Part shown: positions 1-55,052 of the stretch, one piece after another
Layout: each line of letters opens with the position of its first letter
How positions within the stretch are numbered: position 1 is the stretch's first letter
IMG/VR virus record: IMGVR_UViG_3300020469_000020
Location: 32,001 to 96,000 of that record
Length of the DNA stretch: 64,000 nucleotides
Origin: a virus
Direction: 5' to 3' (one strand)
Made by a program: the position numbers and the translations under genes
The notes under the pieces: model-generated
Databases searched by the model: none
Told to the model about the DNA's origin: nothing
What the model saw: the letters and a program-made list of their open reading frames with translations, nothing else

Positions 1-3000
1 AACTGTGAAATAGATGCAGTGCTTGTAGAATTGAATACTATTACCTGACCGTTACTTTTAGTAGCAGTTGCTCCATTTACAGTCACACTGTATGTTTTTG
101 ATGTATCTGTATCAAGCAATTGTAATACAAAACCAACTCTTTCATTTTGAGACTTTAATGATAATGTATTGTTTAATCTTTTATCATTTATAATAGTTTC
201 AACATTATTTTTATTGTTTATTAATTTACCTGTTTTTTGTGCTAACGTAGCATTTGCTAATGTTTGAGTTTTAGTATCTACATTTACACCAGACCAAAAC
301 TGTTCCCAATCTCCCCATTGTGTTCCAAATGCGTTATTACCTAAAGTCTTCCAATTTTTAAATTGATTGTCTTCATTCAATAATACGTTAGGTGTGAACT
401 GTTTGCTGTACCAATTTGTACTAAATGGATGAAGTGTCAACATTCCATTTCTAAAATTTTGTATTGCATCAACTTTTGTATTAGCTGTCGTTATCGCACT
501 CGCTAGTGTATTAGTGTTAAGTATTGGTAAGAATGCTATATTTTTATTTAATGTTGGAAAGTTAGAATTAACAGTAGCATTTGGAGAGACTTCAAGCAAT
601 GTATTATTTGATTTAAATGCAGGAAATAATTTCATTGCTTCTAGATCAATAGAACTTGAAAATCCTTCCATACCAACTTGTGCTATACTAAATCCAGAAA
701 ACATATCAACAATTAATCCATTTGTAAATCTTGGATCTCCACTAGGTGTTGTTAATTTTGTTTGAATAGCCTGTAATTCCAAAGCATTTAATTGAGCAAT
801 ATCTTCTAAGTTTTCAATGCGCTTTTGAAGCTTAGAAATATCTTTCATAGTATAATTTTTATTATCAATTAATTTATAATCAACATCTGCAAAATCAAAA
901 GTATATGCTGGAATTTTTAAGTCATATAGCTTTACATTAAAATCTGATGGTGTGTATAAATTTTCATCTGATACTTGTAATGCTATTTCAGAAGAACCAT
1001 CTCCTTGCAAAGCTATAACTTTATCTTTGTTTATATAATAAGTAAAATCTAAATTTACGTTTGTGCTTACAACATCGGTTACATTCTGATATTCAGGAGT
1101 AGTACCTATTGGTCTTCTTACTGGTCTAAAATCAATTACATTTCTTAAAGGAAACTTGTTATTATCTGGATCTACATAAGTTGGTATTTTTCTATAGTGT
1201 ATATTACTATAACTATCAACTGTGAAATAATGACCATCTGTAGAATCAAAGTAATCATATTCTACCTTGAAATAATAAAAATTATTTCCACCAGCTGCAG
1301 TATTAATATTTTGTATTTCTGGTAAATCAAGATATGGTTTTAAAACAATTCTTCCATGATCGTAATAAGTTTCTCTTTGTCCTGTATCTAAATCAAAATA
1401 TGATGTTAAGTCTATTAGTGGAGAAGTTTTTCCTACTCCAACTTCAACTTTTCTTATGCGATATATATCACTATGTTTTAATTCAAAACCAGTTTGATTT
1501 TGAGAATATCTAATATCATCAAACTGAAGATTACCAGTTGCATCTACATTTACTTGGAAAGCATCGGCTGCTGTTCCACTGATAGTTTTTAAAGTCTTTG
1601 TTCTTTGTGATGGAACTATAATAGGTATAACTGCATGTACAATAAATTCATCACCAACCTGAAAATTATATCCGGCATTTAGTTGAATAGTAAATTTGTG
1701 ATTTGCATCTATACTTGCTGTACTTATAGGTATAGATTCACCTTTGTAGTATTTTAGATAATTAGTACTGCTATCATATATATTTTCAGCAGCATAAACC
1801 TTTGCATTTACAGTACCTACTGTAAACGGAGCACGAAAGTTTGTATCTATATTTGCATCGATACTAGTGCCTACAGTAGCTACAGTCCATTTATTTTGAT
1901 AAAATATACTATAATCATCAACAGCAACATTCTTTACTTCACCATCTTCACTTGAAATTATTTCTGTAAATTTTTTCTGGTCCGTTGGCGCAAATGTTAA
2001 AAGATTACCAAGTGTATCTTTTCTAACATCACCATAAAATTCAGTTCCATTTAAATAAGAACCTTTTACAATTGAATCTACGTTATAATTTTGAAAGGAA
2101 AGACTTACTATATCTCCTATAGAAAAATTAGGAGGATTACTGGCGGTAACATTACTTAGAGTAAATTCTTGATTCATTCCGTCATAATCACTAACATTCC
2201 ATTTACTTCCATTATATTCAATAAACAGTCCGTTATACACATCATCTACCATACTTAATTCCAAACTAACACCTCTAATAGTTACTGTATCATTAATAAT
2301 TGTACCTATATCAGTAACATTAAATTGTTTTGGTTGTGAAGCGAGTTGAAAATGTGAATATCTAAATTGAGAAGGATCTATTACACCTATTGATTTTGCA
2401 CGAAGTGTTCCTATTTTTGTAGAATTATATTGATAAGTATAATGATTACTATGAGAAGGTTTTGTAAATGTATAATTAGTTCCTGATATAAATTTAGTGA
2501 CATCAGTGTCTATAGTAACAGTATTTGCTGCTGTACCTGCAATTGCATTTACTTTACCATAAACTTTGAAATTACTATCAAGAGCATTTGTAATTTCAAT
2601 AAAGTCACCAACATTCAAATAAGTATTATATACACCTGATCCCAATCCGAATAGTTGTAATGAGCCAATCGGTGTGTTATTTGAAATAGTGTTTCGATCA
2701 AAAGATACCACAGTGTAACTTACAGAATTTGCTTCATATGGAGTAACTGATATTTTGTCTATTTTTCTTACTGTATAGCTTATTGTGCTTCCGCCAGTAG
2801 TTTTATTTAATACATTGTGAGTAGTATTAAGTATGGGTAATCCAGATGCTGTATTTTTTGAATGTTTTATTAATTTAAATCTTGAACTTAAATTACCGCT
2901 TGTATCTGGCGATTGAATATTTTCAAAAATAGTTCCATTTATTTCAATTCTATCATTTATACTTATTGAAAGATGAGAAGCAAAACCTGTGGAAAGTTCT

Positions 3001-4520
3001 AATTCAATATCATATAATTCTGAATATTGAGTACAATGTAAATCAATTGATGATAATTTATCAAATTCTAAAAAATTTTGTGTGTACCTATAATTGTAGG
3101 CATCTATATCATTATTAAATTTTAAAAAATGTAAGTTAGGGGAAACGTCAGTTTCTTCTGTAAGAGTGTTTCTTGCTTTTGTATCTTCTAATCTCGTTGT
3201 GAAACTTGTTTCATATCTGTACCCTTTAACATATGCAATACCTTTACTTAAACTATAATTAAGTTTTTCTTCATCTCTTAAATCAATAGAATTATTAAGA
3301 GTAAGTAATGCCACTCCAGATGCATCATTAAAATTATCGTAGTGAATATCACTTACTTTCATTCTATTATCTGTTTCAACACTAATAACTTTTAATAGTC
3401 TATTGTAATCAATATCAGTTCCAAACATAACATAATTATCTGCAGTCAAAGAGGTATAATTACTGTTAGTACCATCAATTGTATACACACTTTCAACACT
3501 TGAAACTAATTGTATATTACTTATTACATGAGTTCCTGCTAAAGCAGTGTCAGACTCTACATTTAATTTAAAATTATCTACAACAAAATTTCCATTAATT
3601 TCATAAGTCCTTCTGGCTAAAGTTTCTCCAAGAACACTATAGATAGGATATTTTGTTCTGAATATTAAATTTCCATTTTTAAATTTAAGTAAAGGAATAA
3701 ATTTCCAGTCTGTATCAATCTGTTTATAATCTAGATCATGTTCTTTCAGGTCTAATCTTAAAACTAATCTATCTGCACCAGGTGAATTAACATTAAAAGC
3801 GTTTTCTGCAGGATCATATAACTGTGTTCCATAAGTAGCATCATTTATGTCTACTATACTCCATATAAGTTCTACACCAACTTCTTTATTTAAATTATTA
3901 ACATTATCAACAGCATAAATATATCGTTGCTTGCTTATGTTTGTAAAATATCCAGAAACGTAAAAAATACTACTATCTATATCAGCATAACTTCCTGTTT
4001 TTGGAGTAACGCTTCTTAGTGTTCCAATTTCAGTTAAAGCTGTTCCGGTTTTAAAATAAACTTTTACAGTGTTTGTTGTTGCTATTGCTTGTTGACTTAG
4101 AGAATCTAAAAATTTAAGTCCGATATGCGGTGGGTAAACTACTCCATTTTCTACAAAAGCTTTTTTCATCGCAATGAAAGTACCTTCTAAAACGTCAGAG
4201 TCTGTAACTGTATCTCTAAAAATAACAGTTGTAGCTTCTGAAGTAGGTGTTAATTCTGTTTTTGCATCATCTGCCAACTCATAAAGTGTGCAGTTATCAT
4301 ATTCTAAACCACCACTAGAAGTTACAAGAGAACCATCTTTAAATATATGATCGCCAAACTTTTTAATTTGCTCATTTATTATATTCTGTAAAGAGATAAG
4401 TTCTGCAGATTGTAAGGGGTATCCTGGCTTAAAAAGTATTTGTGAAAAGTTTCTACCAGGATATTTTACAAAGTATGGACTATTAGCTATATCAGGAAGT
4501 AAAGTTTTAGATTCTGCCAT
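1..4520 (-). CDS. Large virion structural protein (DUF4815/VrlC-like), truncated at left window edge
   Basis: Not in ORF track. Manual translation from ATG 4520: MAESKTLLPDIANSPYFVKYPGRNFSQILFKPGYPLQSAELISLQNIINEQIKKFGDHIFKDGSLV; later NKNYTMKDISKLQKRIENLE. Both match the giant structural protein of marine T4-like phages. Only spot-translated. Confidence 0.85.
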   Translation of the reverse strand, partial: MAESKTLLPDIANSPYFVKYPGRNFSQILFKPGYPLQSAELISLQNIINEQIKKFGDHIFKDGSLVTSSGGLEYDNCTLYELADDAKTELTPTSEATTVIFRDTVTDSDVLEGTFIAMKKAFVENGVVYPPHIGLKFLDSLSQQAIATTNTVKVYFKTGTALTEIGTLRSVTPKTGSYADIDSSIFYVSGYFTNISKQRYIYAVDNVNNLNKEVGVELIWSIVDINDATYGTQLYDPAENAFNVNSPGADRLVLRLDLKEHDLDYKQIDTDWKFIPLLKFKNGNLIFRTKYPIYSVLGETLARRTYEINGNFVVDNFKLNVESDTALAGTHVISNIQLVSSVESVYTIDGTNSNYTSLTADNYVMFGTDIDYNRLLKVISVETDNRMKVSDIHYDNFNDASGVALLTLNNSIDLRDEEKLNYSLSKGIAYVKGYRYETSFTTRLEDTKARNTLTEETDVSPNLHFLKFNNDIDAYNYRYTQNFLEFDKLSSIDLHCTQYSELYDIELELSTGFASHLSISINDRIEINGTIFENIQSPDTSGNLSSRFKLIKHSKNTASGLPILNTTHNVLNKTTGGSTISYTVRKIDKISVTPYEANSVSYTVVSFDRNTISNNTPIGSLQLFGLGSGVYNTYLNVGDFIEITNALDSNFKVYGKVNAIAGTAANTVTIDTDVTKFISGTNYTFTKPSHSNHYTYQYNSTKIGTLRAKSIGVIDPSQFRYSHFQLASQPKQFNVTDIGTIINDTVTIRGVSLELSMVDDVYNGLFIEYNGSKWNVSDYDGMNQEFTLSNVTASNPPNFSIGDIVSLSFQNYNVDSIVKGSYLNGTEFYGDVRKDTLGNLLTFAPTDQKKFTEIISSEDGEVKNVAVDDYSIFYQNKWTVATVGTSIDANIDTNFRAPFTVGTVNAKVYAAENIYDSSTNYLKYYKGESIPISTASIDANHKFTIQLNAGYNFQVGDEFIVHAVIPIIVPSQRTKTLKTISGTAADAFQVNVDATGNLQFDDIRYSQNQTGFELKHSDIYRIRKVEVGVGKTSPLIDLTSYFDLDTGQRETYYDHGRIVLKPYLDLPEIQNINTAAGGNNFYYFKVEYDYFDSTDGHYFTVDSYSNIHYRKIPTYVDPDNNKFPLRNVIDFRPVRRPIGTTPEYQNVTDVVSTNVNLDFTYYINKDKVIALQGDGSSEIALQVSDENLYTPSDFNVKLYDLKIPAYTFDFADVDYKLIDNKNYTMKDISKLQKRIENLEDIAQLNALELQAIQTKLTTPSGDPRFTNGLIVDMFSGFSIAQVGMEGFSSSIDLEAMKLFPAFKSNNTLLEVSPNATVNSNFPTLNKNIAFLPILNTNTLASAITTANTKVDAIQNFRNGMLTLHPFSTNWYSKQFTPNVLLNEDNQFKNWKTLGNNAFGTQWGDWEQFWSGVNVDTKTQTLANATLAQKTGKLINNKNNVETIINDKRLNNTLSLKSQNERVGFVLQLLDTDTSKTYSVTVNGATATKSNGQVIVFNSTSTASISQ

Positions 4521-4587
4521 TTAAAATTCCTTTATTTTTCAGAATAATAATTATACTAGAGGGTTCTTTTTATTTATGAAAGTATTT

Positions 4588-4595
4588 TATAAATA
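4588..4595 (+). promoter_or_regulatory. T4-type late promoter TATAAATA upstream of gp13 (divergent CATAAATA on - strand at 4571-4578)
   Basis: Exact gp55 consensus in an intergenic position. Confidence 0.7.
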
Positions 4596-4637
4596 ATAGT
4601 ACAACGATTTTTTATTAATTTTAAACTATTTATACCT

Positions 4638-5809: not shown

Positions 5810-5810
5810 C

Positions 5811-6002
5811 TCAATCTTCTAAATCTTCTTCTATTGATTCTTTTAAAGCAATTATTTGTTTTCTATAAATATCTTTGTCACCCCAAAGCATATGTCCCAT
5901 AAAACTAACAACACTACCATCGTATTCATCTTCTAATTGTTCTTTAGACATTTGTTTTTTTAAAGACATCGCCAGACCCATTTTCGTGTTCATATAATCC
6001 AT
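5811..6002 (-). CDS. Hypothetical protein
   Basis: 63 aa ORF with GAGG RBS filling the gap. Confidence 0.6.
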   Translation of the reverse strand: MDYMNTKMGLAMSLKKQMSKEQLEDEYDGSVVSFMGHMLWGDKDIYRKQIIALKESIEEDLED

Positions 6003-6070
6003 AATACCTCTTTTTTGACTTGACTCTTAACTAAATATCTGTTACAGTTATTTATAAAGTTTCAAAAAAG

Positions 6071-38894: not shown

Positions 38895-38932
38895 TATGAT
38901 CAGATCTTAGCACATCTGAAGAAAAAGTCAAG
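38878..38932 (-). promoter_or_regulatory. Repeated sigma70 promoter cassette (TTGACT-N16-TAAGAT, extended -10)
   Basis: 55 bp identical to 39118-39172. Confidence 0.85.
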
Positions 38933-38939
38933 CACTTTT

Positions 38940-39134
38940 TTAAATATTTTTTGGCTTGAAGGTCACTTCTGAGAATCGTCCTGTGCTTTCCCATAAAGCT
39001 GAGATATTTCTTGCTGCAACGATTCCTTTGACTTCTGTCACATCAAGCAATTGTCTGTTTGCGTAGCCGTAGATTGTGAACTTCTTGTTTCTTGCTGTCA
39101 TGCTGAATCTCGTTGGAGTTGCTGTCTCAATCAC
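38940..39134 (-). CDS. Small early hypothetical protein
   Basis: Between two identical cassettes; likely start MTARNK. Confidence 0.55.
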   Translation of the reverse strand: MIETATPTRFSMTARNKKFTIYGYANRQLLDVTEVKGIVAARNISALWESTGRFSEVTFKPKNI

Positions 39135-39172
39135 TATGATCAGATCTTAGCACATCTGAAGAAAAAGTCAAG
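39118..39172 (-). promoter_or_regulatory. Repeated sigma70 promoter cassette
   Basis: Identical to 38878-38932. Confidence 0.85.
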
Positions 39173-39180
39173 GGATTTTT

Positions 39181-42250: not shown

Positions 42251-42296
42251 TGAGTTGAAGAATCTGACAAGACACTCTTGTCAACTAATATAATAA

Positions 42297-42328
42297 TAGT
42301 ATAGCAGAAACAAAATCAAAAGTCAAGT
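42297..42328 (-). promoter_or_regulatory. Sigma70 promoter TTGACT...TATACT
   Basis: agtatagc...agtcaag on + strand; a similar site lies at 42467-42495. Confidence 0.7.
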
Positions 42329-42441
42329 TTTTTATTTTTTCTACGGTCTTTTTTTGAATATTTCTTGGAATTTTCTTTTTTCTCAGCATACCTTGAGCGC
42401 ATGAGAAGAGCATAATTTTTTCCAAGTCTGACTTTCTTCAC
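42316..42441 (-). CDS. Small basic protein (41 aa)
   Basis: GTG start with GGAGGA RBS behind own promoter; MKKVRLGKNYALLMRSRYAEKKENSKKYSKKDRRKNKKLDF. Confidence 0.5.
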   Translation of the reverse strand: MKKVRLGKNYALLMRSRYAEKKENSKKYSKKDRRKNKKLDF

Positions 42442-42585
42442 AGTTCCTCCTTAATTGTTAAATACCAGTATAGCAGAATTTTTGAAAAAGTCAAGGTTTT
42501 TTTTATATAAATATAAAAAAGAATTACTTATCTCTTAGATAAGGTATATTACCAATCGGAAAATCAATTAAAAAATAAAGGTTTC

Positions 42586-51220: not shown

Positions 51221-52144
51221 TTATTCGCTTGCTAGTTTTTCAAAAAAGGCAAGTTCATCATCTTCGGCTGCAGGCGTTGTTACTCTATCAGATTTAGCTA
51301 CAAAGTCGGGAACAGACTTTCTAACTGGTTGTTCAACAGGTTCAGAAGAAGTTTCTGTTACTGTATGATCTACTTCAGTTTGAGAGTTATTAGGTTTACT
51401 ACCAAACATTACAGACTGAAATCTTTTATTCAAATCATCATAAGACTTGTAATAATCACTTGCTGTAAATTCGCTTAACGAATATTGAGAACGCCAAATT
51501 TTTTCCATTTCACCATCAGTTTCTGCCAACTGAGTTGGAGTATCAAATGAAGATTTATCATAAGTGATATAACCTTTTTCTCTTCTCATTCTCAATCGAA
51601 AATTACAACCTTCCAAAAAGTCAAACACATAAATTGGCTCTTCTGGTTTCATATCTGCAAATTCAGGTGCAGGAGGATTAATTTTCTCCTGAATAAATTC
51701 AAAGATTTTAGGACCGTATTGAAATAAAAATACTTTTCCTTCATTATCAGGATTTGTTGGATCTGAAATAACTAAAACATTAGAAACATATTTCAATTTC
51801 TTTTTACGCAATCTTGCTAGAGTTTCGTTTTCAGTTCCACCTTCTGCCCACAATTGATTATTTGCTTCACAAATAGGACACTCTTTACCAATACTTTTTG
51901 GACAATTATCAATTAACCAGCCATGAGGACCTTTAAATTCATGACGATGGTATTTTACATACTCTTCTTGTTCATCTGGACTTGGTGGCAAAAAACGAAT
52001 GATAGCAGAACCTACACCATCTTTTGCTTCTAGTCTCCAAAATCTATTATCATCATAAGATGTATTTTTAGATTCTTTTTCCAACTTTTGTTGCATTGAA
52101 GCAAGTCTAGTTGTTCTAGATTTTAAAGCTGACTTGAAATCCAT
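51221..52144 (-). CDS. gp32: Single-stranded DNA-binding protein gp32
   Basis: D.RFW...G.A.IRFLP, NCP....CPIC, DP.NPDNEGKVFLF.YG.KIF, acidic tail. Confidence 0.95.
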   Translation of the reverse strand: MDFKSALKSRTTRLASMQQKLEKESKNTSYDDNRFWRLEAKDGVGSAIIRFLPPSPDEQEEYVKYHRHEFKGPHGWLIDNCPKSIGKECPICEANNQLWAEGGTENETLARLRKKKLKYVSNVLVISDPTNPDNEGKVFLFQYGPKIFEFIQEKINPPAPEFADMKPEEPIYVFDFLEGCNFRLRMRREKGYITYDKSSFDTPTQLAETDGEMEKIWRSQYSLSEFTASDYYKSYDDLNKRFQSVMFGSKPNNSQTEVDHTVTETSSEPVEQPVRKSVPDFVAKSDRVTTPAAEDDELAFFEKLASE

Positions 52145-52230: not shown

Positions 52231-52875
52231 TCAAGTGCAAAAAATCTCTTTAACGATTTTTTTCAAACTTGTTGTCTCTTGCTCCTTTAAAAAGGTTTTC
52301 ATTTTCTTCAGTCTTTGATTTATGATTGGAAAAAGAACATTTTCAGAAACTCTTGTTTCCATTATTTTTGAAAAATTTAAGACTTGATCCAAATATAAAA
52401 CTGTTTGTGGTGATACTTGACTTTTTATTATAAACTTATAAATCATAGGAACTATATTTTCTTCAATTAAAAACATCGTGTTCATATTAGATTTTTTTTT
52501 CTCTAGATATAATTTTATTTCATTTAACTCTTTTTCAAAAAAGTATTTTGGAGAATTTTGATAACTTGTCCAATATTTCCATGAAGAGACATAATCTTCT
52601 GACATAAAGTATTCTATTTTTATTTTCGGATTATGGAATAAACCTGGAATAAAAAAATCTGGAAAGTCTTTTTTATCTTTTCCTTTTGCAATAATACTAT
52701 ATGGTACAATATCATTAAAGTTGTGCTTTTTTATTTTTCCGTTATATTTCAAATAATTATAATTTTTAGAACTAAAATGTAATTTAATAGCTTGATATTT
52801 TTCTTTTACTTCCTCTGGTGTTACCAAAGATGTCTGGAAATTTCCTCGTTTTTGGTAAGAAGTTAAGTTGTTCAA
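52231..52875 (-). CDS. gp59: Helicase loader gp59
   Basis: Y.AIKLHF....Y.Y.KYNGK; synteny gp33-59-32; start uncertain. Confidence 0.85.
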   Translation of the reverse strand: MNNLTSYQKRGNFQTSLVTPEEVKEKYQAIKLHFSSKNYNYLKYNGKIKKHNFNDIVPYSIIAKGKDKKDFPDFFIPGLFHNPKIKIEYFMSEDYVSSWKYWTSYQNSPKYFFEKELNEIKLYLEKKKSNMNTMFLIEENIVPMIYKFIIKSQVSPQTVLYLDQVLNFSKIMETRVSENVLFPIINQRLKKMKTFLKEQETTSLKKIVKEIFCT

Positions 52876-53044: not shown

Positions 53045-53464
53045 TTAATTTTCCTTTTGAGTTACGTTATCTTGTACAGAATTTTCATAATACTCTATAA
53101 TATTTTTTTGTTGTATGATATAACGTCTAATTTCGGCTACATTCAATGATAGTCTTTCATAATCTTTAACTTCTATAGCATAAAATACCCACTCCTTTCC
53201 TTGTTCTTTGTTTATTTTTTCATTAAAAGCATCTATTGTATCCGGTGTTATTACATACCATGTAATATTTTTATTAAGTTTTAATCCCTTTGGCCTAGCT
53301 TGAATGGGAATATTCTTTTCAATAACTTTTGTTTTTATAATAACTTCTGGTTCTTTTTGAACAGAAGGTTGTTTGTTACTACAACTGTTTAATAAAAAAC
53401 TAATTGGTAGTATCAGTAGAAGTAATTTCTTCCAACTCTGCAAAAATTTTAGAGGTAGCTTCAT
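53045..53464 (-). CDS. Outer-membrane spanin (lipoprotein)
   Basis: Lipobox LNSC; YE.LSLN.AEI.RYI.QQK.II.YYE; overlaps i-spanin. Confidence 0.75.
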   Translation of the reverse strand: MKLPLKFLQSWKKLLLLILPISFLLNSCSNKQPSVQKEPEVIIKTKVIEKNIPIQARPKGLKLNKNITWYVITPDTIDAFNEKINKEQGKEWVFYAIEVKDYERLSLNVAEIRRYIIQQKNIIEYYENSVQDNVTQKEN

Positions 53465-53801
53465 TTATACGTTTTTCAATAAGACCAGGTTTCTTTGAAG
53501 AAAGTTTTGTGAGATTATGATCATTCAATTTTTTCTGAAGGTCAATATTATAATTCTCTGCTTTCTGCAAAGACTTTTGAAGTTGTAATGTTTCTTTTTG
53601 TATTTTGGAATTTTGCTCACTTAAAACATTTACAGTAGTTTCTACATCTTTTAGACTGGATTTATACTTAGATGCTTCAGAAGTTTTAATTTCTAACTGA
53701 TTTTTTAAATTTATGTAATGATTATATCCATAATATATACTTCCAGATACACTTAATAATAGTATTACTATTGTGTATAATTTGGTTAACATATACTTCA
53801 A
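53400..53801 (-). CDS. Inner-membrane spanin
   Basis: N-terminal TM, coiled coil, KPGLIEKRIN.AT. Confidence 0.75.
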   Translation of the reverse strand: MKYMLTKLYTIVILLLSVSGSIYYGYNHYINLKNQLEIKTSEASKYKSSLKDVETTVNVLSEQNSKIQKETLQLQKSLQKAENYNIDLQKKLNDHNLTKLSSKKPGLIEKRINEATSKIFAELEEITSTDTTN

Positions 53802-53849
53802 TCTTTAATTTGAAATGATTTATCTTAATATTATATTTATCGTGTGCGG

Positions 53850-54050
53850 AATGTGGAAAAGAAAAAGAAAAGAAACTTAAACAAAAAACAAACTTCAAAA
53901 TACAAAAAACAGACAAGCACGGTGTTCAATATTCTCGGAGCAATGAACAAATTTTACTTTACCGAGGAGCAGTGAACAGTCAGGTTTAGAGTAGTTTTAA
54001 GGCCGCATTAGATGCGTGGAGTTTCTTAGTACATTCTCTTTTCCACTACG
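53850..54050 (-). ncRNA. Putative structured ncRNA or 3' RNA element
   Basis: 10-bp terminal inverted repeat (53853-62 / 54037-46), internal 13-nt direct repeats, hairpins, 7-nt periodic U-rich tract. Confidence 0.55.
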
Positions 54051-54056
54051 AACAAA

Positions 54057-54635
54057 TTAGATCAAGTCTTCCTCCTGGAGGACCTTTTCCTCTTTGTCCG
54101 ATAAACGAATAGTTGTTGAAACATTTAGTTCCAATAACTTATCGGTTATTTTTTGACGATGTTTTTTACATGTACGAATTTCTTTACGATATTCTTCTAC
54201 CTCTTCTTTTGAAATAAGAACAGTAGATACCGACATTCCTCTCAAATAGCGAGGAGAATCTTCTCCCTGTTTTTCAAGTTTTTCCATTCGATTAATAATT
54301 TCTTCCGCAGTATATCTACGAACAGATTTACTATCATCTACCAGTTCGGATAACCAGTTAACGATATTTGTGACTTCACGTTCTTCAGTTAATAATTTGG
54401 AAATACCAATTTCCATATTTTTATGTGCAACTTTTTCTCTCATAGAAAAAAGAACACTATTTAACACACGAAGACGTATTAAATTATTTTTCCATAATTC
54501 GGTGTTCTCCTTCATTTCTTCTACTACACGGTCTTTATCATCAAAAGATGATTGTACGTTAAGGTTAATGTCACGGATTATACCGTTGATTTCACTTTGA
54601 AGTGCGGCCGCTTTTCTTAAATTAACTTCTGTCAT
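54057..54635 (-). CDS. Coiled-coil hypothetical protein
   Basis: NLRKAAALQ.EI...K...Q.I.DKLLELNV.T.I.L....VL..E.LI; AGGAG RBS. Confidence 0.75.
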   Translation of the reverse strand: MTEVNLRKAAALQSEINGIIRDINLNVQSSFDDKDRVVEEMKENTELWKNNLIRLRVLNSVLFSMREKVAHKNMEIGISKLLTEEREVTNIVNWLSELVDDSKSVRRYTAEEIINRMEKLEKQGEDSPRYLRGMSVSTVLISKEEVEEYRKEIRTCKKHRQKITDKLLELNVSTTIRLSDKEEKVLQEEDLI

Positions 54636-54657
54636 AATATACTCCTTAATTGCAAAT

Positions 54658-54744
54658 TGGTGCGGCAGGTCGGACTTGAACCGACAAGACTATTAAGTCG
54701 ACGGATTTTAAGTCCGTTGTGTTTACCATTTTCACCACAGCCGC
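54658..54744 (-). tRNA. tRNA-Leu(UAA)
   Basis: GCGGCTG acceptor, anticodon arm ACGGA-CTTAAAA-TCCGT, long variable arm, GGTTCAAGTCC, encoded CCA. Confidence 0.96.
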
Positions 54745-54767
54745 TTTTTTATAATTTTACTATGAGA

Positions 54768-54800
54768 TCAGTATAACACAACTGTTTTAAAATGTCAAGG
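54768..54800 (-). promoter_or_regulatory. Sigma70 promoter TTGACA...TATACT upstream of tRNA
   Basis: agtataac...tgtcaag on + strand. Confidence 0.75.
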
Positions 54801-55052
54801 TTTTTTTATTAATTCTTTCAAACCAAAAATATCATATCCATAATATAAAGTTACATATAACAACATAAAAACGATTGTGTTTACTAAACCGCCCCAAAAT
54901 AATAATATAATTAGAACTTTGCGTATAATAGGTTTAACATAAATTGTGCATGGTAATTTATATATGCAGGAATCAATAAAATTATATATGCGGTTCTTGA
55001 TTGCCATGATCTTCTCCAATTGGAATATTTTGACGATGACACCAGTAATCAT
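54795..55052 (-). CDS. Small membrane protein
   Basis: Hydrophobic C-terminal half; likely start MAIKNR. Confidence 0.45.
   Translation of the reverse strand: MITGVIVKIFQLEKIMAIKNRIYNFIDSCIYKLPCTIYVKPIIRKVLIILLFWGGLVNTIVFMLLYVTLYYGYDIFGLKELIKKP

What the first reader, a model, noticed from the sequence alone, without database searches (positions are those of the whole stretch)
53850..54800. tRNA + coiled-coil protein + structured ~195-nt RNA with heptad U-rich repeats: candidate ribonucleoprotein system
Seen: one sigma70 promoter (54768-54800) precedes tRNA-Leu, a 192-aa helical protein and then a ~250-bp non-coding gap, unusually long for this compact genome. On the transcribed (-) strand the gap is closed by GUGGAAAAGA...UCUUUUCCAC (54046-37 with 53862-53). 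It contains a CGCAU-CUA-AUGCG hairpin, two 13-nt near-identical repeats UGUUCA(C/U)UGCUCC (53966-78, 53937-49) that could each pair with UGAACA (53923-28), and five 7-nt units ending in G at 53910, 53903, 53896, 53889 and 53882 (UUGUCUG UUUUUUG UAUUUUG AAGUUUG UUUUUUG). Inference: a discrete RNA whose periodic single-stranded repeats are bound by an oligomer of the adjacent protein (ring/filament RNP, RNA antitoxin, or sponge for a host RNA-binding protein). I cannot assign it to any family I recognise.
Basis: partly seen in the sequence, partly recalled or inferred. Interest (0 to 1): 0.85.

Follow-up and report, generated by a model that had tools for sequence, protein, structure and literature searches.

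The report
Phage heptad-repeat RNA with partner protein
The "empty" 255 bases behind a small helical-protein gene of this marine T4-like phage encode a real, conserved, folded RNA of about 195 bases that displays UG/UUG every 7 bases. The same uncatalogued gene-plus-RNA pair recurs, one copy per genome, in many tRNA-rich phages, including cultured Caulobacter phages, and its job is unknown.

Summary
The gap holds a structured RNA (window 53853-54046, minus strand). It has a long closing helix (P1/P1b), a small hairpin (P2), a nested hairpin (P3/P4) and two single-stranded rows of NNNN(U)UG units.

Every locus I could fetch that encodes a relative of the 192-aa protein (28-95% identity) also carries this RNA on the same strand. 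These comprise 33 viral contigs, 5 metagenome contigs and 3 cultured phages. The RNA lies just behind the gene, just ahead of it, or at most 1.5 kb away.

A covariance model built only from the "RNA-first" loci finds the window's element at E=1.5e-7. 25 of 28 helix pairs show compensatory changes.

No Rfam family matches the RNA. No Pfam, PHROG, NCBIfam or PADLOC family explains the protein, which folds confidently as an all-helical bundle predicted to form a dimer.

The pair usually sits in phage tRNA/tmRNA/GOLLD islands, so the neighbouring tRNA-Leu is context, not a specific part.

Most likely this is an undescribed protein-RNA particle, but binding and function remain inferred. This scan's earlier notes report the same kind of pair on other DNA.

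The parts
54770..54798 (-). sigma-70-type promoter (TTGACA, 17-nt spacer, TG, TATACT) that heads the tRNA / protein / RNA unit
   Evidence: 11 of 12 positions, extended -10. No other good minus-strand promoter lies before the RNA.
54658..54744 (-). tRNA-Leu (anticodon UAA); context of the unit, not a conserved part of the pair
   Evidence: Relatives carry other tRNAs or none nearby.
54057..54635 (-). 192-aa all-helical partner protein, member of a large uncharacterised phage family
   Evidence: -: the ORF.
- 932 cluster representatives at E<=1e-3.
- AlphaFold2 model, pLDDT 96.4.
- no family match.
- dimer model.
53853..54046 (-). the structured RNA, 194 nt from the first to the last base of helix P1 (covariance-model match 53847-54069)
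   Evidence: E=1.5e-7 with model R2, which was not trained on it; single copy in the 105-kb record
54034..54046 (-). P1 5' strand, GUGGAAAAGAGAA
   Evidence: It pairs with 53853-53865. The helix is kept with different sequences in relatives: GUGGAUUGUA/UACAAUCCAC in L021, GUGGAAGCGG/CCGCUUCCAC in CcrColossus, and a 16-bp version in phage Gurke.
53853..53865 (-). P1 3' strand, UUUUUCUUUUCCAC
   Evidence: helix 1: all 8 pairs show changes on both sides. A 174-nt metatranscriptome contig ends exactly at 53853 (weak hint).
54021..54027 (-). P1b 5' strand, AAGAAAC, part of the conserved GAGA-YGAG-A...AC block
   Evidence: It pairs with GUUUCUU at 53870-53876.
53870..53876 (-). P1b 3' strand, GUUUCUU
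54004..54016 (-). P2 hairpin, CGCAU-CUA-AUGCG
   Evidence: Relatives have a hairpin of different sequence at the same place: CAGCA-AUA-UGCUG in L021, GAUGAGG...CCUUCAUC in CcrColossus.
53973..53978 (-). P3 5' strand, UGUUCA
   Evidence: It pairs with 53923-53928. Three compensatory changes against clade B (GUCUU/GAGAC). All 6 pairs covary across the family.
53923..53928 (-). P3 3' strand, UGAACA
53962..53967 (-). P4 5' strand, CCUCGG, preceded by the conserved UGCU
   Evidence: all 4 modelled pairs covary
53933..53938 (-). P4 3' strand, CCGAGA, preceded by the conserved UUGCU
53939..53955 (-). repeat row 1, inside the P4 loop (AAAAUUUG UUCAUUG CU)
   Evidence: the UUUG...UUUGCU columns are invariant in 24 sequences
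53882..53916 (-). repeat row 2: five 7-nt units (UUGUCUG UUUUUUG UAUUUUG AAGUUUG UUUUUUG), single-stranded in the consensus structure
53830..53859 (-). promoter-like sequence just behind the RNA (GATAAATA, resembling a T4-type late promoter, and TATAAT) for the lysis genes that follow
   Evidence: Reading it as a late promoter is inference from T4 biology.

Best explanation
The gap encodes a stand-alone structured non-coding RNA of about 195 nt. It is one half of a conserved phage gene pair; the other half is the adjacent 192-aa helical protein.

Shown:
- The RNA is on the same strand as the gene.
- It is closed by a long-range helix (P1/P1b).
- It carries a small hairpin (P2) and a nested hairpin (P3/P4).
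- It presents two single-stranded rows of 7-nt units with invariant UG (mostly UUG). Two to three units lie in the P4 loop and four to six lie between P3 and P1.
- Each phage genome searched holds one copy, next to the protein gene.

Inferred:
- In this phage the RNA is made early, from the promoter at 54798-54770, on one transcript with tRNA-Leu and the protein mRNA. It is then trimmed to a stable RNA whose ends are held in P1.
- The protein, predicted to be a symmetric dimer, docks on the phased UG units, several copies per RNA, to form a ribonucleoprotein particle.
- Because the pair lives in phage tRNA/tmRNA/GOLLD islands, the particle most likely acts on RNA or translation during infection. 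Its target is unknown.
For: RNA reality
- The element is conserved while flanks diverge. The protein is about 50% identical in clade B, yet the RNA blocks are kept and similarity stops right after P1.
- RNAalifold on 13 independent "RNA-first" loci recovers P1, P1b, P3 and P4. 22 of 29 pairs are compensatory.
- Pair counts on those 13 loci: 87.6% of cells paired against 69.4% in shuffles and 33-49% with slid partners; covariation score 0.646 against 0.31 (0 of 500 shuffles).
- On 24 sequences including this one: 90.6% paired, 25 of 28 pairs compensatory, score 0.741 against 0.28 (this alignment is fitted to the model).
- Frequent G-U pairs fix the strand.
- Model R2, built without the window, finds it at 37.9 bits, E=1.5e-7.
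- Model R1, built from the window and clade B, finds CcrColossus at E=0.008.
- Heptad phasing is significant in 16 of 18 lineages, and the UG columns are invariant.

Linkage to the protein
- The RNA lies immediately 3' of the gene in the window, clade B, L021-26, L038, L041, L046, CcrColossus, CcrPW and Gurke.
- It lies immediately 5', behind its own promoter, in L027, 28, 33, 35, 37, 39, 43, 44, 45, 49, 50 and 51.
- It lies 290 nt to 1.5 kb away in L029, L040 and L047.
- Each of five phage records searched whole holds exactly one copy.

Protein
- The AlphaFold2 model has pLDDT 96.4.
- Homodimer model: ipSAE 0.67 against 0.00 for the best of 3 controls. This mark was reached by 20 of 30 proteins solved as pairs of one chain and by 1 of 23 solved as single chains. 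The runs share at least 97% of contacts, and partner pLDDT is at least 88.

Expression hints only
- A 174-nt contig from an RNA library lies wholly inside the RNA (53853-54025).
- A 162-nt contig from another study bridges the ORF end and the RNA (53974-54135).
- DNA carry-over in these libraries cannot be excluded.
Against: - No binding was measured or modelled.
- The protein family is mildly acidic (median pI about 6, net charge about -2), which is unusual for an RNA binder.
- The pair can be separated by tRNAs and a GOLLD RNA (L029, L040), so the two need not be made in strict cis.
- No intrinsic terminator or defined 5' end was found for the window's RNA, so its mature size is inferred.
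- Function is unknown, and the island context is only circumstantial.
Confidence: 0.55

Rival explanations
1. The RNA is a decoy or sponge for a host single-strand RNA-binding protein with a footprint of about 7 nt. Candidates are cold-shock-domain proteins, Hfq/Sm-like rings and ribosomal protein S1. The neighbouring protein helps in some other way, for example as a chaperone or in processing, and does not read the repeats.
For: - The rows are U-rich units ending in G, single-stranded and invariant.
- From established knowledge: cold-shock domains bind about 6-7 nt of U-rich strand, and Hfq was crystallised with AU5G.
- The partner protein is not basic.
Against: - The strict one-to-one linkage with this protein family across very different hosts argues that the phage protein is the partner. 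Hosts range from marine AT-rich phages to GC-rich Caulobacter and Brevundimonas phages.
- In GC-rich phages the units are not U-rich (CACUGUG in Gurke). Only UG and the phase are kept.
- None of five phage genomes encodes a cold-shock domain.
Confidence: 0.18
2. The element is a cis-acting regulatory part of the protein's own mRNA. It would be an autoregulatory leader or 3' UTR, or a stabiliser, rather than a separate RNA.
For: - It is always on the same strand and usually directly adjacent.
- In 12 lineages it lies between a promoter and the protein's start codon, like a leader.
- A contig from an RNA library bridges the ORF and the RNA here.
Against: - Its position flips between 5' and 3' of the gene.
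- In L029 and L040 it is separated from the gene by tRNA-like genes, other RNAs and up to 1.5 kb.
- No terminator or anti-terminator, and no sequestered ribosome-binding site, is conserved.
- A 28-bp covarying architecture with a closing helix is typical of stand-alone RNAs.
Confidence: 0.12
3. It is a toxin-antitoxin-like pair (type III style) in which the repeat RNA neutralises the protein.
Against: - The units are 7 nt inside one folded RNA, not tandem repeats of about 36 nt that are cut out.
- The RNA can lie 3' of the gene or far from it.
- The protein has no match to ToxN/Abi or any PADLOC model beyond noise.
- Its fold is a helical bundle, not an endoribonuclease.
- The pair is single-copy in lytic jumbo phages, within tRNA islands.
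Confidence: 0.04
4. It is a DNA-level element such as an origin, a packaging site or a recombination site, or merely a spacer with a terminator.
For: - Inverted repeats and periodic short repeats can mark origins.
- The element lies between an early unit and the lysis genes.
Against: - Covariation preserves pairing through G-U pairs that would be A-C on the other strand.
- The orientation is always that of the protein gene.
- A 7-bp period does not fit the DNA helical repeat.
- No terminator-like hairpin followed by a U-run is present on the minus strand.
Confidence: 0.03

Closest known systems
TRAP with the trp leader and HutP with the hut leader (Bacillus subtilis)
   Same: A single-stranded RNA displays a short invariant word at a fixed phase. 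HutP reads UAG every 7 nt; TRAP reads (G/U)AG every 5-6 nt. In both, repeated sites on one protein oligomer read the words. (From established knowledge; a working analogy only.)
   Different: - Those proteins are beta-rich rings (an 11-mer and a hexamer). This partner is an all-helical predicted dimer.
- Those RNAs are transcription-attenuation leaders of the regulated operon. This RNA is a closed, stand-alone fold that may lie before or after its partner gene and has no terminator.
- Binding here is untested.
Crystal structure 3KDQ, a Corynebacterium diphtheriae protein of unknown function. Earlier notes of this scan call it the DIP1984 family / Pfam DUF6847, which I did not verify.
   Same: It is the best structural match to the partner protein. 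Foldseek gives probability 1.00 and E=0.011. VIA-align gives Z=9.9 with 141 of 152 residues aligned. An Atlas feature search lists a cluster in which 19% of members carry DUF6847, at score 0.92.
   Different: - No sequence-level link was found: the PF20935 model, NCBIfam and a PDB profile search all fail to match.
- Z below 13 is common for helical bundles.
- That family's function is unknown too.
GOLLD, ROOL and Drum RNAs (orphan structured RNAs found near phage tRNA genes; Rfam)
   Same: - All are phage-borne non-coding RNAs of unknown function that cluster with tRNA genes.
- GOLLD lies within 1-1.5 kb of the pair in 4 related loci.
   Different: - The covariance models do not match.
- This RNA is much smaller than GOLLD or ROOL, has heptad rows, and has a dedicated protein partner.
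Phage T4 stable RNAs rnaC and rnaD (species 1 and 2)
   Same: They are small stable RNAs of unknown function encoded in the tRNA cluster of a T4-type phage.
   Different: - Model R2 finds nothing at rnaC or rnaD with filters off (best hit 8.5 bits, elsewhere).
- The T4 genome has no relative of the protein.
Ro60 (Rsr) with Y RNA
   Same: It is a protein gene with an adjacent non-coding RNA whose 5' and 3' ends form a long closing stem. Such pairs are found in bacteria and some phages, and the RNA can lie on either side of the gene (established knowledge).
   Different: - No match to the Y_RNA or YrlA models.
- The protein is a 190-aa helical bundle, not a TROVE/HEAT ring.
- Y RNAs have no heptad rows.

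Membership tests
Any Rfam 15 family (including GOLLD, Drum, RAGATH motifs, Y RNA, 6S, tmRNA) | covariance-model score at or above the family's gathering score | tested here: not met
   - Window: only the tRNA passes.
- Window 53500-55000 at E<=10: only noise.
- 20 related loci at gathering threshold and 8 at E<=0.5: nothing falls on the element.
The heptad-UG phage RNA family defined here (models R1, R2) | significant match to a covariance model built from other members | tested here: met
   R2 was built from 13 RNA-first loci only. It matches window 53847-54069(-) at 37.9 bits, E=1.5e-7 in 141 kb and E=1.1e-7 in the whole 105-kb record.
The heptad-UG phage RNA family defined here (models R1, R2) | closing helix P1/P1b and nested P3/P4 supported by compensatory changes | tested here: met
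   The window's own helices are listed.
The heptad-UG phage RNA family defined here (models R1, R2) | two single-stranded rows of 7-nt units with invariant UG | tested here: met
The heptad-UG phage RNA family defined here (models R1, R2) | same-strand neighbour of a gene of the ~190-aa helical protein family | tested here: met
DIP1984 / DUF6847 protein family (PF20935) | match to the family's profile HMM | tested here: not met
   - Pfam scan of 66 members: no PF20935 match.
- NCBIfam: none.
- PF20935 against four phage genomes that carry the pair: no match at E<=1.
DIP1984 / DUF6847 protein family (PF20935) | the fold of crystal structure 3KDQ | tested here: inconclusive
   3KDQ is the top hit in both searches (Foldseek probability 1.00, TM 0.44-0.54; VIA-align Z=9.9, rmsd 5.6, 141 aligned). 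However, Z is below the level that separates helical bundles.
TRAP / HutP-type phased-repeat RNA-protein regulators | short invariant word repeated at fixed phase in single-stranded RNA | tested here: met
   The model is all-helical, there are no Pfam hits, and a dimer is predicted.
TRAP / HutP-type phased-repeat RNA-protein regulators | leader RNA with terminator/antiterminator ahead of the regulated operon | tested here: not met
   No terminator was found. The RNA lies 3' of the gene here and its position varies among relatives.
TRAP / HutP-type phased-repeat RNA-protein regulators | direct binding of the protein to the repeats | not testable with these tools
   The complex predictor scores protein-protein pairs only.
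Type III toxin-antitoxin (ToxIN-like) | tandem ~36-nt RNA repeats upstream of an endoribonuclease toxin gene | tested here: not met
   The units are 7 nt inside one fold. No tandem-repeat array of longer period is seen in the sequence read. The protein matches no defence or toxin model.
T4 rnaC / rnaD stable RNAs | sequence and structure similarity to the T4 genes | tested here: not met
   (filters off, no hit at 70908-71171 of T4)

The most novel reading that the evidence does not exclude
This is a new class of phage ribonucleoprotein. Dimers of an all-helical protein line up on the phased UG units of a closed ~200-nt RNA. The read-out would resemble TRAP or HutP but use an unrelated fold. 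The resulting particle would work within the phage's tRNA/tmRNA/GOLLD "RNA island" to take over or protect translation, for example by shielding phage tRNAs from host nucleases or by capturing a host RNA or protein.
Probability: 0.25. Interest if true: 0.9.

Novelty: categorically new. Interest (0 to 1): 0.8.

Why it matters
- A widespread gene pair has gone unannotated in phage genomes, including cultured Caulobacter and Brevundimonas phages in which it can be tested. The protein family has 932 cluster representatives, and each genome searched carries one copy of the pair.
- It adds a protein-partnered member to the poorly understood set of structured RNAs that cluster with phage tRNA genes (GOLLD, ROOL, Drum, T4 rnaC/D). 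None of these has a known function.
- Its strictly phased, invariant UG units point to a specific, testable way of recognising RNA.
- For annotation, model R2 can now label these "empty" gaps.

Tried and rejected
- A single-protein scan of viral contigs and tblastn of the phage collection with the window protein and P0030 found nothing. Alignment-based scans were needed.
- The DNA-pattern scan gave only the known loci plus chance hits L006-8 and L010.
- MAFFT could not align L021-type RNAs with the window's. R2 does not reach L021-26 or Gurke. Their membership rests on R1 at E about 0.4 and on manual inspection of P1, the GUAAGAAAC block and the heptads.
- T4 rnaC/rnaD and T4 e.6 are unrelated.
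- RtcB (PF01139) is present in only 1 of 5 phage genomes that carry the pair, and there it is 32 kb away. Cold-shock domain is present in 0 of 5.
- Read laying showed no joints, so there is no evidence here for a circular form. Contigs cannot show this well, and uncovered parts mean nothing.
- The apparent 3.9-kb ORF-free stretch at 766-4637 was an artefact: a 1506-aa ORF runs off the window's start.
- The mini-ORF AUG-NNN-UAA in the 5' block is confined to the window and clade B and lies in the P1/P1b internal loop. It was not pursued.
- Literature searches found no description of the pair.
Full report
**Setting.** The window is part of a 105-kb IMG/VR virus record. It comes from a marine T4-like phage.
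- It encodes gp32 (51221-52144), a gp59-like helicase loader (52231-52875) and an Rz-like spanin pair (53400-53801 and 53045-53464), all on the minus strand.
- The finding lies just upstream of the spanins.

**Observation.**
- The promoter is strong: TTGACA, 17-nt spacer, TG, TATACT at 54798-54770.
- tRNA-Leu(UAA) lies at 54658-54744.
- The 192-aa ORF spans 54057-54635.
- A 255-nt gap follows. It contains the 10-bp closing stem (which extends to 13 bp), the CGCAU-CUA-AUGCG hairpin, the two UGUUCA(C/U)UGCUCC copies, UGAACA and five heptads.
- Four UUG at exact 7-nt spacing occur once in 64 kb, against 0.03 expected.
- No shuffle of the element reaches its chain of 5 phased UG.
- The fold has z = -2.99.
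- The gap is one of four internal gaps of 255-335 nt, so it is long but not unique.

**Relatives of the protein.**
- The protein has no Pfam, PHROG, NCBIfam or PADLOC family.
- It nevertheless belongs to a large family. There are 24 close relatives and 932 cluster representatives at E<=1e-3 in an exhaustive profile search.
- Fetched loci: 4 viral contigs, 5 metagenome contigs, 33 viral contigs with a broader alignment, and three cultured phages: Caulobacter phages CcrColossus and CcrPW and Brevundimonas phage Gurke.

**The RNA is conserved and structured.**
- In clade B the protein is about 50% identical, yet the downstream element keeps several blocks: the 5' block GUAGUGGAAARGAGAAUGNANUAAGAAAC, the UUGCUCC motifs, the heptads and the 3' UUUUCUUUUCCACA. 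Similarity ends right after the closing helix.
- P3 changes from UGUUCA/UGAACA to GUCUU/GAGAC through three compensatory changes.
- In more distant phages the closing helix has other sequences: GUGGAUUGUA/UACAAUCCAC (L021-26), GUGGAAGCGG/CCGCUUCCAC (CcrColossus, CcrPW) and a 16-bp GC-rich version (Gurke). P2, P3 and P4 likewise differ in sequence but not in place.
- The heptads persist even in GC-rich phages. CcrColossus has GGGUUG CGCGUUG UCCGUUG UAGCUUG CCCUUUG. Gurke has CACUGUG CACUGUG CCGUGUG AACUGUG CUCUGUG.
- What is invariant is therefore UG and the 7-nt phase.

**Position of the RNA relative to the gene.**
- Model R1 (window plus clade B) showed where the RNA sits in loci that lack a downstream gap. 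There it lies immediately upstream of the protein gene, behind its own sigma-70-type promoter and a short GCAA-capped hairpin.
- Thirteen such RNAs align well. RNAalifold recovers P1, P1b, P3 and P4 with 22 of 29 compensatory pairs.
- Pair counts on these: 87.6% paired against 69.4% shuffled and 33-49% slid; covariation score 0.646 against 0.31.
- Model R2, built from these 13 only, finds the window's element at E=1.5e-7 and clade B at 1e-5 to 1e-7. It finds L041 and L046 at 1e-21 to 1e-26, and L038 at 1e-4.
- R2 also locates the RNA in the two loci that had seemed to lack it: L040, 1.5 kb downstream, and L047, 290 nt upstream.
- On 24 sequences aligned to the model, 90.6% of cells pair and 25 of 28 pairs are compensatory (this alignment is fitted to the model). 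Many G-U pairs fix the strand as that of the protein gene.
- Whole-record searches give exactly one copy in this phage and in four jumbo phages.
- R2 misses CcrColossus in that whole-record search. R1 found it at E=0.008, and R2 found it at E=0.07 in the locus search.

**Known families.**
- No Rfam family matches the element, here or in 20 related loci, even at lenient thresholds.
- Those scans show the neighbourhood. 14 of 20 loci have tRNA genes within 2.5 kb, four have GOLLD RNA and three have tmRNA.
- The window's tRNA-Leu is therefore typical context rather than a specific partner.
- T4's rnaC and rnaD are unrelated.

**The protein.**
- AlphaFold2 with 66 diverse sequences gives a confident all-helical bundle, pLDDT 96.4, with short N- and C-terminal strands.
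- The best solved match is 3KDQ, a Corynebacterium protein of unknown function. Foldseek gives probability 1.00; VIA-align gives Z=9.9 over 141 residues. For helical bundles this is suggestive only.
- Predicted viral structures include clear relatives in CcrColossus, an Erwinia jumbo phage, a Vibrio phage and two giant viruses, Catovirus and Yasminevirus.
- The DUF6847 and NCBIfam models that earlier scan notes associate with 3KDQ do not match by sequence.
- A homodimer model passes its controls: ipSAE 0.67 against 0.00 for the best of 3 controls. The mark was reached by 20 of 30 proteins solved as pairs of one chain and by 1 of 23 single chains. The runs share at least 97% of contacts, and partner pLDDT is at least 88.
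- The family is mildly acidic.

**Expression.**
- Runs that hold the DNA are marine metagenomes.
- In RNA libraries, one 174-nt contig lies wholly inside the RNA and ends exactly at the last base of P1 (53853-54025).
- A 162-nt contig from another study bridges the ORF end and the RNA (53974-54135).
- These are contigs from RNA libraries and show neither transcription nor RNA ends. I treat them as hints of co-transcription and of a 3' end at P1.
- No minus-strand terminator or internal promoter was found.
- Directly after P1 comes GATAAATA/TATAAT. I read this, by analogy with T4, as the promoter of the lysis genes.

**Interpretation.**
- Shown: a single-copy, strand-specific, covarying RNA with invariant phased UG rows, obligately linked to one protein family across very different phages.
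- Inferred: the two form a particle in which several protein dimers read the phased units. This is a working analogy to HutP (UAG every 7 nt) and TRAP, without homology.
- I put this at about 0.55.
- The main rivals are a sponge for a host protein with a 7-nt footprint (0.18) and a cis-regulatory element of the protein's mRNA (0.12). The cis reading is weakened by the 5'/3' flip and by the separated cases.
- Toxin-antitoxin and DNA-element readings are unlikely.
- Leads from earlier scan notes on other DNA found no support in this subfamily: RtcB linkage, a T5 member and a circular form.

**Novelty.**
- I found no description in Rfam, in the protein family libraries or in the searchable literature.
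- This scan's own earlier notes report the same kind of pair in other genomes.
- I therefore class it as a new kind of phage protein-RNA system whose function is open.

Noticed in passing
L027:3071-3285, L029:3070-3285, L040:3065-3285: A second conserved GC-rich non-coding stretch of about 220 nt lies directly behind the protein gene in the loci whose heptad RNA sits elsewhere. It shares the motifs GUGCAUUGG, AAAUGGAAAAG and AGUAGCU-AGACACUUUAU. In L027 and L029 it is followed by a tRNA-like 3' end. It has no Rfam match and may be another uncatalogued RNA.
   Followed up: partly
L029:1448-1912, L037:1645-2107, L040:3922-4382, L050:1640-2100; tmRNA in L037, L047, L050: GOLLD RNAs and phage tmRNAs lie within 1-2 kb of the pair, inside dense tRNA arrays. 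The pair is part of a phage "RNA island".
   Followed up: no
L047:2211-2500 and L047:3838-4010: In this locus an ~80-aa ORF with an RNA-polymerase-omega-like look (judged by eye) lies between the RNA and the protein gene. A CspA-like cold-shock gene lies about 770 nt downstream.
   Followed up: no
window 54026-54034 (minus strand): The mini reading frame AUG-UAC-UAA (AUG-AAG-UAA in clade B) follows a GGAG-like word in the internal loop between P1 and P1b. It is conserved only in these two clades.
   Followed up: partly
window 42251-42585, 38895-39180, 5810-6070: Three other ORF-free gaps of 261-335 nt exist in the window. Rfam finds nothing in them at gathering threshold. They were not examined further.
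   Followed up: no
window 53830-53859: Promoter-like sequences (GATAAATA, like a T4 late promoter, and TATAAT) sit immediately after the RNA's last base and ahead of the spanin genes.
   Followed up: no
BFVD hits to the protein model: Structural relatives of the partner protein turn up in the giant viruses Catovirus CTV1 and Yasminevirus (Foldseek E 4e-5 and 1e-4, TM 0.5-0.65). Whether an RNA accompanies them was not checked.
   Followed up: no
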